Below are positions 86 through 3,421 of a DNA stretch of 64,000 bases, in pieces. Each line of letters starts with the position of its first letter. Within the stretch, counting starts at the first letter, position 1. A model generated the notes under the pieces. It saw only the letters and a program-made list of their open reading frames with translations. It was not told the origin of the DNA and made no database searches. The DNA is from Lophium mytilinum. Taxonomy: Eukaryota. Position numbers and translations under genes: made by a program. Location: the NCBI GenBank assembly GCA_010093605.1, contig MU004184.1, forward strand, positions 2,180,801 to 2,244,800. Reading direction: 5' to 3'.

Positions 86-1088
86 CTATACAATCTTCTC
101 TGCCTCTTCTAACAAGGTTTCCACCTTGAAATTGCCATCTCCACTGCTGAACTGCTCCAGAAGCTTCTTCCGTTCCGTACTTTCCTTAGCCTGCATACCG
201 TAGAACTTCTGCAAACACATGAGAAGCCATTTGGCCTCATCTACCGTGACACCACGGCCCGGTAGCACGCTTCCTTGCCCCAAGATCAGACCTTTTGGCT
301 CAACAAGCTCCTGATGGAATGACACTGTTGTATGCGGGGTGCTATATTCGCCGCGCAGCTTGTACTCCGCCAAATGCGTGAATAGCACAGTTGTAGTATG
401 TGGCGCCGGTTGCGCCCACTGAAGGAAGTGTATCTCGGCACCCTGTCCCTCCCGAGGTAGTGGAAGGATAAACTGTGGATGTTTATTTGCTGTTTGCGCA
501 ATGATGCGCCATGTGTGCTGTGGTAGGTTAAAGCTTAGAGAGTTGGGTTTCGAGGCATGCCGTAGGCGCCAGATGGTTTCTATCTCTTTTGGCGGGAGCT
601 CGAGTGTTTTTGGGACATCGATGAAGGAGGAGAGGGTTTTGAGGCCGGGAGGTGTGGAAGACTGTGTTTTGGGTACTGGAGAAGATGGAAGAGGGGGCGG
701 AGAAGGGAATGGCGAGCCTGTGCTTGTCGAAGAGGCGTCGGTGTCAAGAGGAGCAGTGGCGCCAGGGACTGCGGCTTGCTTTCGTAGGTCTTCGATTTTG
801 TCCTTGTATGCTTGTTTGAGCTCAGAGATATCGCTCAGACCTTCCCTGTTGACCAATCGTCAGACTTTGTATGTATAACTTGGGTGCTCCAGTTGCCCAC
901 GCCATTGAAGCTTACTCTTTCGCTTTGCGGTCAAGCTTCTCACGGTACTTCGCTATGACACGTTCCTGTGTGCCATGGGTAGCTAGAAAGCGCACATCGT
1001 GGACTTGCGCCCATCGCCGCTGGCAGATACGGGGGTTTATAAGAGGTCGGAAAAGATGTCGGATAGCAGGTTGTCGGATGCTCGCCAT
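86..1088 (-). CDS. ATP11: Mitochondrial F1-ATPase assembly chaperone Atp11 (2 exons, intron ~846-915)
   Basis: Exon 1 reads MASIRQPAIRHLFRPL...QRRWAQVHDVRFLATH...KYREKLDRKAKE (mitochondrial presequence-like). It is spliced (GTAAGC...CAG) to ORF 86..856 containing KTLSSFIDV, EIETIWRLRH, PQFILPLPR, EIHFLQW, LAEYKLRGE and LQKFYG, typical of the ATP11 family. Confidence 0.93.
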
Positions 1089-1291
1089 GGCGATGGGATT
1101 GAGGCTTCGGAGGTGCCTCGATTCGCCACGACATTGGCGGTGTTCGAAGACATCACGTGGAGATAAGATCGGGAAGATCCCGCTAAGCCTACTGTGTGGA
1201 GCACTATAATGATCACTTTGCTATGGCATAAAACCTACTAAACTAGCTTATACTTAGGTCCAAGCAGACGCATGTTCAAGAACGACGCTTG

Positions 1292-1510
1292 GGTTTAGCC
1301 GCTGTAGAGTTCGTACTAAGAGCAGGCGATGACAATGTGAACCGTTTGGACTGCTAGTGGGCACGGGAATGTAAACATTGCGTGATCGCATAATTAATCA
1401 CAGTGGATTTTCGATCCGAAGCGGGCAAAAACAGTGTGCGGTAGTTTGAATTCGTTCTCTGCCAGCTGGGGACGAGAGCATGGGGTTCGGCCCGTACGAT
1501 AGATACATAT
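1292..1510 (+). ncRNA. Candidate box H/ACA snoRNA (three hairpins; pocket complementary to LSU rRNA A-loop)
   Basis: Hairpins found by eye at 1292-1343, 1351-1424 and 1435-1498; ANANNA box (AAAACA) at 1428-1433; terminal ATA/ACA at 1499-1507. Pocket strands TAGTGGG (1355-1361) and CGATCCGA (1412-1419) pair with the conserved LSU sequence UUGGAUUG-UU-CACCCACUA. Confidence 0.5.
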
Positions 1511-1826
1511 GAATCACGTCATTTAAACAGCTTCAACGTATTTTTCCATTGTCTCGCGAATGATAATTTTTTCGGCATAGTGTTATTGGTAGCTCTCAGT
1601 CCACTCTTCTTAAGTTGCTCATCACGAAGTAGAAATTGTGTTAAGAGGTTCGTATATACATTCGTCGATGTATGAGCACAAGGACTCGAACTGACATGGA
1701 CGGTTACGGCCCTTGAGACAGGACTTCAACATGTAGACTGAACGAATCCAGACCTACCACCTTTATTGCCTTTTGAGAGATCTTCTCCATTTCGAGCCCT
1801 TGGAAAATCTCGACTCAACACTATAC

Positions 1827-3421
1827 CTAATAATTTTGTTCTGCGGCACATGTCAGAATCAGTCGTCCGAGATCAAGCCATACACTTACGATTGTTCCAG
1901 TACAGCGTGTCTAAAAAGCACGTAAGGTCAGCCAAGTCGATATTGAATCAATGATCTGTCAGATCTTACCATGTTGGACCTCGGGACCAGTAGCTCCTAG
2001 TTCCCATCCGAACTTTAGATGGATGTACTGCATCAGATGGCTCGCAACTTTGACGTGCCCAACATCGGTGGGGTGATATTGCGGTGCCTGTTTTGATTAG
2101 TTCGCCGAAGGAAAATATTCGGAAAAAAAGGCGACTAGGACCACCTACAATATCGTTGTGTTGTAAGATTCCTGTCGTATTGAAGTAGTGCACAAATCCG
2201 GTATGCTTGTAGTGATTATACACCATCTCAATCTCGTCGATGAATGCACCCCCTTGCGCATAGCTGTTTCCCACAGCATTGAATCCATTCCACAAGCTCA
2301 CGAGCACGATATCTGCATGCGGATAAACTCTATGCACCCCGGCAACGAACTCGATGTAGCTATGAAGATATCGGTCATTGGTGACGTTGTTGTGGGTATT
2401 GTTGTCATTCGTTCCAAGATTGATGACCACTATATCAGCCGCGGGGTGCTCCTTGAAATCCCAGACCTCCGGTTCGTCGCCGTAGATCTCTAGGGCACGT
2501 CCCGATGTATCGGGTGTGTGGTACCACTGATATGTTTGCCCACGCGGATTGCCCCAGCAGTTTGTGTCAACTAGACAGATGCCCGGATAGGCCGTGATGT
2601 GAAACTCGACGTTGCCGAAGCCAGCTGCGAGGCCCCAGCTGTAAGAGGAAATACCCTCGTATGTTGCGTACTGGCCGGCGCTGAGCGAGTCGCCGATTAT
2701 CTCGAGCGTTTTGTGAAAGTCTTTCAGTTTGAAGAGCTCGCCTGTTGAGCTGACGTGCACGCCGGCGATTTGCACACCGTATGCCCAATTGGTAACGCGG
2801 AGCTCTAGCGTTTGTGGGAGCTGCGCTTGAGTAGTGAGATTGAGGCCGGTGGTGCTGCTTGAGATGAGCTGATGGGTGGAGTTGGCTGTGACGTTTGTGA
2901 ATAGCTGTGATGTTGTCAATTCCATGGGTCGTGCTTCTCAGATACGGCCCTTACCCAATCCTGCCCACCAAGTCTGTATGCTATGAGAACGCTGGGAGAG
3001 GTGTAGTTCCCGAAACTGATAGCAACCTACCCTACTGTCAGAGCTGGGGAAAAGGAACGCGTGAGGTATGGTGGAAGACCTTGTCGCCAGTAAATCCGAA
3101 CTTGAGCCCTGGGGCTCTGAGGGTTGGGTTAGTCTTGTCACTGGTTTGTTGACTGCCATGAAGCTTACGACCACCCTTCGATGCCACTGATCAGTATTGC
3201 TCCTACCGAGCGGTGCCTCACTCACAGGAGATGTGCTTGCTATCCCAACGTCCTTTGTATGACAGCTCTTTCGCACTAGGTGCATAAGTCCTCCAAGAGA
3301 GGTCGTGAGCTACGGAAGCAATCGAGGTGTCTGGGAAGACAACCTCGCGAACTTGACCGTTCTGGAGGATGGTCCCGGAGACGGTGGTAGCGAGGATCGC
3401 AATTGATGAAAAGAGCTTCAT
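1827..3421 (-). CDS. Secreted SGNH/GDSL hydrolase, carbohydrate esterase family 2-like (multi-exon, includes a 7-nt micro-exon)
   Basis: Signal peptide MKLFSSIAILATTVSG; SYKGRWD...SWWSAPGLKFGF N-domain; catalytic blocks EIIGDSLSAG, AYPGICL, VINLGTND and (PQY)HPTDVGH. The spliced C-terminus reads HDTLYWNNQQNY* ending at 1827. Confidence 0.85.

What the first reader, a model, noticed from the sequence alone, without database searches (positions are those of the whole stretch)
1292..1510. Unannotated three-hairpin H/ACA-like RNA with a guide pocket for the LSU rRNA A-loop
Seen in sequence: three consecutive G-U-rich stems on the + strand, GGTTTA/TGAACC + GCC-GCT/AGC-GGC (1292-1343), CTGCT/AGCGG + GGAAT/ATTTT + GTGAT/ATCAC (1351-1424) and GTGCGG/CCGTAC + GTTCTC/GAGAGC (1435-1498). 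An ANANNA box lies at 1428-1433 and ATA/ACA at the 3' end. The middle pocket has CGATCCGA starting 16 nt before the H box and TAGTGGG on the other side. Established knowledge: LSU rRNA helix 92 reads UUGGAUUG-UU-CACCCACUA, and its U2923 (yeast numbering) is pseudouridylated by an H/ACA guide (snR10 in S. cerevisiae). Inference: this is an independently transcribed snoRNA running divergently from the ATP11 promoter. The extra 5' hairpin and the guide sitting in the H-box hairpin would be an atypical architecture. The 5' pocket pairing is interrupted (CAC opposite A), so the call is not certain.
Basis: partly seen in the sequence, partly recalled or inferred. Interest (0 to 1): 0.7.

Follow-up and report, generated by a model that had tools for sequence, protein, structure and literature searches.

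The report
Probable fungal H/ACA snoRNA, not snR10

Summary
The three-hairpin fold is barely populated. For 5' ends at 1275-1286, a two-domain fold dominates: branched hairpin 1286-1423, H box 1428, hairpin 1435-1498, AUA/ACA tail. The true snR10 is elsewhere in the genome (L093; Rfam Afu_182 and snR10). An A-loop-quality match to some known pseudouridine site is expected about 0.7 times per 64 kb.

A real H/ACA-type RNA is still likely (about 75%). A separate 242-nt contig of a spliced RNA run covers 1253-1494. A box-flank motif hits only this locus and one H/ACA gene with a canonical pocket. The 3' hairpin pairs 7+5 bp around LSU U1036, which is yeast U1042, snR33's site. snR33 was reported absent from Pezizomycotina, yet that uridine is modified in Chaetomium thermophilum.

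Against this, pocket-to-box spacing is 19 or 25 nt rather than 14-16, folding z-scores are unremarkable, and no homologue was found.

The parts
86..1088 (-). ATP11 gene (neighbour, divergent from the RNA); intron 845-914
   Evidence: Pfam PF06644; first-exon ORF from ATG 1088; splice joint 844/915 in run X1
1253..1494 (.). Stretch covered by a separate 242-nt contig of run X1 (mean word depth 4.4); strand and ends not shown by contigs
1286..1423 (+). Predicted 5' domain: one long branched hairpin (base stem 1286-1295/1413-1423, helix 1299-1305/1400-1406); no canonical guide pocket for a known site found
   Evidence: pair probabilities 0.96-0.99 for most of these pairs with start 1286; boundary scan; target scans
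1355..1361 (+).
1412..1419 (+).
1352..1408 (+). Weak second complementarity, TGCTAG 1352-1357 + GTGGAT 1403-1408, to LSU U2318 (yeast 2347); 25 nt from the H box, no closing upper stem
1428..1433 (+). H box AAAACA, unpaired in the dominant fold
1435..1498 (+). 3' hairpin: lower stem 1436-1441/1492-1497, upper stem 1454-1459/1474-1479
1443..1449 (+). Proposed 5' guide strand AGTTTGA, 7 WC pairs with LSU 1038-1044
1480..1484 (+). Proposed 3' guide strand ATGGG, 5 pairs (1 G-U) with LSU 1031-1035; target U1036 = yeast U1042
1496..1507 (+). Tail with ACG 1496 (16 nt from pocket top), ATA 1499 (19 nt) and ACA 1505 (25 nt); which one acts as the box is open
   Evidence: sequence
1555..3419 (-). GDSL-type hydrolase transcript, convergent neighbour
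   Evidence: Pfam PF13472; spliced contig 1555-3419 in run X1

Best explanation
A single-copy, intergenic, independently transcribed box H/ACA snoRNA of about 225 nt (about 1275-1286 to 1504-1510), with the ordinary hairpin-H-hairpin-ACA layout and an enlarged, branched 5' domain. It would bind two sets of Cbf5-Nop10-Nhp2-Gar1. Its 3' hairpin opens to pair AGUUUGA and AUGGG on either side of LSU U1036 (yeast U1042, A-site finger), leaving U-C unpaired, so that Cbf5 converts that uridine to pseudouridine. This makes it the functional counterpart of yeast snR33. Shown: motifs, predicted fold, pairing, identity of the site, RNA-run contig, snR10 elsewhere. Inferred: strand and ends of the transcript, protein binding, the modification itself, and tolerance of the odd spacing. 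Probability that it is a real H/ACA-type RNA gene about 0.75; that it also guides U1042 about 0.45.
For: (1) The two-domain fold with both boxes unpaired has pair probabilities of 0.91-1.0 for starts 1275-1286. (2) The pairing is 7 WC + 5 (1 G-U) with the canonical 2-nt gap. The numbering map puts 29 of 31 yeast 25S sites on a T and U1036 on yeast 1042. (3) Null: among 306 H-hairpin-ACA segments in 648,983 bases, the candidate included, 11 had such a match to any uridine (12 sites). Only the candidate hit one of 29 known LSU sites. (4) C. thermophilum 26S position 1024 (offset 18, from ct948 taken as yeast 966) is called pseudouridine in 2347 of 6017 reads plus 1378 U-to-C calls. Canzler 2018 says snR33 cannot be found in Pezizomycotina. 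(5) A pattern drawn from the candidate and Neurospora Nc ACA18 (H box, TGTRCGG, then GATACAT) hits 2 places in 43 Mb against 0 for the reversed control. The other place, L153, has a canonical 8+4 WC pocket for yeast 2351 at 14 nt. (6) Run X1, which skips 5 introns, has a separate contig over 1253-1494, while the introns and gaps 973-1252 and 1495-1554 are uncovered. (7) No convincing rival guide for this site among 13 pattern hits folded. (8) 16 of 20 N. crassa H/ACA genes are intergenic.
Against: (1) Spacing from pocket top to box is 19 nt (AUA) or 25 nt (ACA). It is 16 only to ACG, which is not a valid box: ACA varies only in its middle base, and the boxes act as a ruler of about 14 nt. Both control genes have 14. 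(2) Four nt lie between the 5' guide and the upper stem, whereas known yeast 3' pockets have a stem within 1 nt. Forcing such a stem costs 11 kcal/mol. (3) No homologue in 80 ATP11 loci, so no conservation or covariation test was possible. (4) No Rfam match, including snR33, at E up to 10 (one search gave one chance hit). (5) Folding z-scores are ordinary. The 3' hairpin falls to 0.02-0.13 (lower stem) for starts at 1253-1260. (6) The bare architecture occurs about 3 times per 64 kb. (7) The thresholds and the pattern were set after seeing the candidate, and my filters missed both control genes. (8) The rival-guide search was incomplete: 77 of 77 hits listed at one spacing, 100 of 175 in the wider search. 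(9) The contig has low depth and no strand; the run's RNA nature is a tool guess.
Confidence: 0.45

Rival explanations
1. Not an RNA gene: an intergenic stretch with chance hairpins, lightly transcribed either from the ATP11 promoter in the opposite direction or by read-through from the convergent hydrolase gene.
For: Folding z about 0. Architecture about 3 per 64 kb. Loose guide matches are common: 255 of 1500 H boxes match one of 29 sites. No homologue. Contig depth only 4.4. Broken spacing rule.
Against: The structure-anchored match to a known site is unique among 306 segments. The box-flank motif is shared with a canonical H/ACA gene. The contig ends fall within about 35 nt of the predicted ends.
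Confidence: 0.25
2. A real H/ACA RNA that guides nothing at present: an orphan, or a decaying relative of the Nc ACA18 / snR9-type guide for yeast 2347 whose pockets have drifted away from their boxes. It would be stable through Cbf5 binding but catalytically idle.
For: Both residual complementarities (yeast 2347 and 1042) lie 25 nt from their boxes. By-eye likeness to Nc ACA18 at the base stem, after the H box and in the tail. No clear canonical ACA18 counterpart among the 60 and 8 hits of two genome patterns, judged by eye.
Against: The 2347 pocket has no closing upper stem. The likeness to Nc ACA18 was not aligned or scored. The site at yeast 1042 needs a guide and no better one was seen.
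Confidence: 0.24
3. One reading: a three-hairpin RNA whose middle, H-box hairpin is a second, redundant guide for U2923 in the A-loop.
For: 15 possible pairs; isolated duplex energies -11.7 and -11.6 kcal/mol, stronger than those of the true snR10 (-4.3, -9.1). 16-nt spacing. Up to four unpaired target nt are tolerated. Redundant guides are described in fungi. The match is rare for that single site.
Against: Needs a fold 20 kcal/mol above the minimum whose stems reach at most 0.03 (upper) and 0.30 (lower) over 33 boundary choices. T1355 is used in both stem and guide. The site already has a canonical guide. About 0.74 such matches to known sites are expected per window.
Confidence: 0.06

Closest known systems
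S. cerevisiae snR33 (guide for 25S pseudouridine 1042; table in PMC8307265)
   Same: Same predicted target uridine. Taoka 2016 (PMC5062969) also predicted that snR33 could pair near 2345/2347, where the candidate has a weak second complementarity.
   Different: No Rfam match. Spacing 19 or 25 nt. snR33 was reported absent from Pezizomycotina (PMC5824354). Sequence homology is not shown, so at most a functional counterpart.
S. cerevisiae snR10 / N. crassa Nc ACA13 / A. fumigatus Afu_182 (RF01258, RF01496)
   Same: The candidate has a chance-level complementarity to the same A-loop site.
   Different: snR10 guides from its 3' hairpin and carries a 7-nt processing element in its 5' hairpin (PMC2879522). 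The genome's orthologue is L093 (G000:C4, about 1220563-1220754), with 6 of those 7 nt and 14-nt spacing. The candidate matches neither model.
N. crassa Nc ACA18 (186 nt, intergenic, guide for 26S 2309 = yeast 2347; PMC2780460)
   Same: By eye: GCUU/AAGC base of the 5' domain, GCUAG and GUGGA elements, UGURCGG after the H box, GAUACAUAU tail.
   Different: In Nc ACA18 the guide sits 15 nt from the H box in a closed pocket; here it is 25 nt away with no closing stem. Nc ACA18 lacks the AGUUUGA strand. The likeness was not scored.
Nc ACA2-like snoRNA of this genome (L153, G000:C1 about 1387928-1388004, minus strand)
   Same: Shares H box + TGTGCGG and the GATACAT tail.
   Different: Different target (yeast 2351) and canonical spacing. 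Similarity of the hairpin interior is not significant (p 0.12 and 0.10), nor that of the 5' parts, so paralogy is not shown.

Membership tests
Box H/ACA snoRNA | Hairpin-hinge-hairpin-tail fold | tested here: met
   Predicted only; pair probabilities 0.91-1.0 for starts 1275-1286, sensitive to other boundaries
Box H/ACA snoRNA | Unpaired ANANNA in the hinge | tested here: met
   AAAACA 1428-1433, unpaired probability 0.93-1.0 for 1286-1511
Box H/ACA snoRNA | ACA (or ANA) 3 nt from the 3' end of the RNA | tested here: inconclusive
   ATA 1499 and ACA 1505 present; contigs cannot show the end
Box H/ACA snoRNA | Bipartite guide of 8 or more bp around an unpaired U-N | tested here: met
   7+5 bp around LSU U1036
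Box H/ACA snoRNA | Target uridine 14-16 nt from the box | tested here: not met
   19 nt to ATA, 25 nt to ACA; 16 nt only to a non-standard ACG. This lowers the guide claim more than the class claim, since orphan H/ACA RNAs exist
Box H/ACA snoRNA | Stable transcript bound by Cbf5/Nop10/Nhp2/Gar1 | not testable with these tools
   Only an unstranded contig of one run
Box H/ACA snoRNA | Conservation and covariation in relatives | tested here: inconclusive
   No homologue in 80 ATP11 loci at 48-73% protein identity; the neighbourhood is not kept
snR10 / Afu_182 | Match to RF01258 or RF01496 | tested here: not met
   None for the candidate; L093 scores 117.6 bits (Afu_182) and E 2.3e-7 (snR10)
snR10 / Afu_182 | U2923 guide in the 3' (ACA) hairpin | tested here: not met
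   The match lies upstream of the H box; the 3' hairpin has none among its top-scoring targets
snR10 / Afu_182 | [quoted passage not shown] | tested here: not met
   Absent from 1253-1511 (sequence); CCATGA present in L093
snR33 | Guide for 25S U1042 | tested here: inconclusive
   Pairing present, spacing atypical
snR33 | Sequence homology to the yeast family model | tested here: not met
   No match in scans of all 4227 Rfam families at E up to 10
Nc ACA18 / snR9-type guide for 2347 | Closed pocket 15 nt from the H box | tested here: not met
   6+6 bp but 25 nt away and no upper stem

The most novel reading that the evidence does not exclude
It is the missing filamentous-fungal counterpart of snR33 and works with a stretched ruler. 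Both of its rRNA-pairing elements (yeast 2347 at the H box, yeast 1042 at the ACA box) sit 25 nt from their boxes, about one helical turn more than the rule, each followed by a UUCG-containing segment that could loop out. A functional guide with this geometry would be a new variant of the H/ACA architecture and would explain why searches missed the family.
Probability: 0.08. Interest if true: 0.6.

Novelty: new member of a known kind. Interest (0 to 1): 0.3.

Why it matters
If it guides U1042 it fills a named gap: the modification exists in a filamentous ascomycete (PMC12723226) while its guide family was reported absent there (PMC5824354). It would also test how strict the 14-16 nt ruler is.

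Tried and rejected
Rfam: no match over the window at gathering score, nor at E up to 10 for 1000-2000 and 1280-1515; one chance Xist hit. A whole-genome search with RF01258 found nothing although L093 matches it in a small search, so whole-genome blanks have little power. No tRNA. Single copy in the genome by DNA search.

Homologues: 80 of 107 confirmed ATP11 loci from metagenomes gave nothing by nhmmer, blastn or a one-sequence covariance model. A 13-nt identity near the contig end of L076 (E 4.4) was treated as chance. The genome has no relatives in the collection, and the records behind the metagenome loci are not held. No RNA holder is on record; run X1 is RNA only by the tool's guess.

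No relation to the tandem H/ACA-like arrays on the same contig. Paralogy with L153 not significant.

Other targets rejected: U2921 register (6+6 bp, 3 G-U); LSU 3074 (conflicts with the stems); 5.8S 100 and SSU 291 (geometry); U2 snRNA (weak). An intron inside the RNA was considered; the X1 contig shows no joint. C. globosum positions could not be matched to the site. The sigma-70 promoter scan does not apply to a fungus. Scans of the viral and prokaryote contig collections were not run, as fungal homologues are not expected there.

Full report
Setting. The window is G000:C4:2180801-2244800 of a 43-Mb fungal assembly. The stretch lies between ATP11 (minus strand, ATG at 1088) and a convergent GDSL hydrolase gene whose spliced contig begins at 1555. 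No ORF of 50 aa or more overlaps 1210-1965. It is single-copy and has no Rfam match.

Observation. All motifs are at the stated coordinates and the genome's own helix 92 reads as claimed. The fold is not as claimed. The minimum-energy and ensemble structure of 1286-1511 has two domains: a branched hairpin 1286-1423, the H box, a rod 1435-1498 and the tail. Forcing three hairpins costs 10 kcal/mol, and opening the A-loop pocket 20. The two-domain fold holds for starts at 1275-1286 and weakens for others. Stability is not above shuffles, but the true snR10 hairpin does little better.

It is not snR10. Canzler 2018 equates Neurospora Nc ACA13 with snR10. A pattern from its guide gave 32 genome hits, one of which, L093, carries the same motifs. 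L093 scores 117.6 bits on Afu_182 (cut-off 65) and E 2.3e-7 on snR10. It has 14-nt spacing and 6 of the 7 nt of the processing element defined by Liang 2010. The A-loop site therefore has its canonical guide. That is about 0.74 per window for the 45 known yeast sites. In its favour, the isolated duplexes are strong and a 4-nt gap is tolerated.

Evidence that an RNA gene is there. First, run X1 skips five introns, and its four laid contigs cover neither the introns nor 973-1252 and 1495-1554. It has a separate 242-nt contig over 1253-1494 with no differences, at depth 4.4. Contigs give no strand or ends, and the run is RNA only by the tool's guess. Second, a pattern taken from a by-eye likeness to Nc ACA18 found two places in the genome against none for the control. 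The other, L153, which I had not seen before, has a canonical 8+4 Watson-Crick pocket for yeast 2351, like Nc ACA2. Rfam does not recognise L153, and its hairpin interior is not significantly like the candidate's. The shared motif therefore suggests class, not paralogy. Against this, the bare architecture passed at 3 places in the window and 4 times in 85,547 other bases, and the filter missed L093.

Best target. In the 3' hairpin, AGUUUGA (1443-1449) and AUGGG (1480-1484) pair 7+5 around LSU U1036 with the canonical two unpaired nucleotides. Local offsets place 29 of 31 yeast 25S sites on a T and make U1036 yeast U1042, the snR33 site. Among 306 H-hairpin-ACA segments in 648,983 bases, 11 had a comparable match to any uridine and only the candidate matched a known LSU site. 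The thresholds were set after the fact, and the filter missed L153. Freeing the guide strands costs 2.6 kcal/mol, against 6.1 and 2.6 for the two controls, though part of the upper stem refolds. snR33 was reported absent from Pezizomycotina, yet C. thermophilum 26S 1024 is modified in 39% of reads plus 23% U-to-C calls (numbering inferred from ct948 = yeast 966). C. globosum could not be mapped. Two genome patterns for a rival guide gave chance-level counts (77 against 83, and 175 against 177 for the controls). I saw 77 of 77 and 100 of 175 hits, folded 13, and found none convincing by eye.

The flaw. The pocket top is 19 nt from AUA and 25 nt from ACA; only a non-standard ACG lies at 16. The boxes act as a ruler of about 14 nt. 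Known yeast pockets have 13-16 nt spacing and a stem within 1 nt, whereas 4 nt intervene here. A second, weaker complementarity to yeast 2347 in the 5' domain is also 25 nt from its box and lacks a closing stem. It occurs at 145 of 20,241 H boxes, and a match to any of 29 sites at 255 of 1500. Taoka 2016 predicted pairing of yeast snR33 near that site but found snR9 responsible; I could not see their figure.

Relatives. 193 stretches matched, 107 encoded ATP11 relatives and 80 were kept. None holds a detectable homologue. Of 15 upstream regions printed, none resembled the candidate by eye, and the hydrolase neighbour was not found in any locus. This is loss of synteny at 48-73% protein identity and does not test conservation.

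Papers seen. PMC5824354: passages and two of nine parts, no supplement. PMC2780460: passages, supplements 2 and 5 whole. PMC2879522: three of seven parts. PMC8216456: passages and one section, supplement too large. PMC3890542: supplement search and file 3. PMC6049503, PMC5778458, PMC2551606: passages. PMC8307265: passages and the table. PMC5062969: passages and one section. PMC12723226: abstract, three sections, passages, two supplement parts and table rows. I found no description of a Pezizomycotina snR33 in the listings. The unread alignments of Gao 2021 (intergenic structure 1 has a proposed target at yeast 1039, structure 4 at 2347) and of Canzler 2018 may already hold this RNA.

Verdict. 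Probably a real, ordinary H/ACA-type snoRNA gene (about 0.75), most likely an snR33-like guide for U1042 (0.45). Rivals: chance structure (0.25), orphan or decayed RNA (0.24), second A-loop guide (0.06). New member of a known kind; interest 0.3.

Noticed in passing
L093:1365-1562 (G000:C4, about 1220557-1220754, +): The genome's snR10 / Nc ACA13 / Afu_182 orthologue; the motif at the H-box position reads AGAACG.
   Followed up: yes
L153, around 1400-1580 (3' hairpin at G000:C1:1387928-1388004, -): H/ACA snoRNA like Nc ACA2 with no Rfam match: 3' pocket for yeast 2351; the 5' part has an 11-nt complement 15 nt before the H box pointing at own LSU U900.
   Followed up: partly
L001 (G000:C21:2590-10197): The LSU gene holds a 1.25-kb intron with an open frame that looks like a homing endonuclease (label by recall), and a further insertion of about 450 nt lies at the 3' end of the SSU gene.
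   Followed up: no
G000, several contigs: Nine U2 snRNA matches above the cut-off, four of them on contig C4, some divergent or longer than the model.
   Followed up: no
L117:3600-6100 (G000:C4, about 268600-271100): The tandem H/ACA-like repeats noted by the scan carry seven TGTRCGG words on one strand, the word that follows the candidate's H box; otherwise no similarity.
   Followed up: partly
L009, L012, L013, L017, L021, L024, L025, L028, L041 upstream of ATP11: These relatives have a conserved divergent protein gene head-to-head with ATP11 (looks like an acyl-CoA ligase, label by recall) where this genome has the RNA candidate.
   Followed up: no
window 1966-2925: Run X1 shows four introns in the GDSL hydrolase gene (joints 1840/1890, 1910/1970, 2086/2148, 2904/2955), including a short exon between the first two.
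   Followed up: no
window 49653 (+) and about 26993 (-): Two other places pass the hairpin-H-hairpin-ACA filter; treated as background.
   Followed up: no
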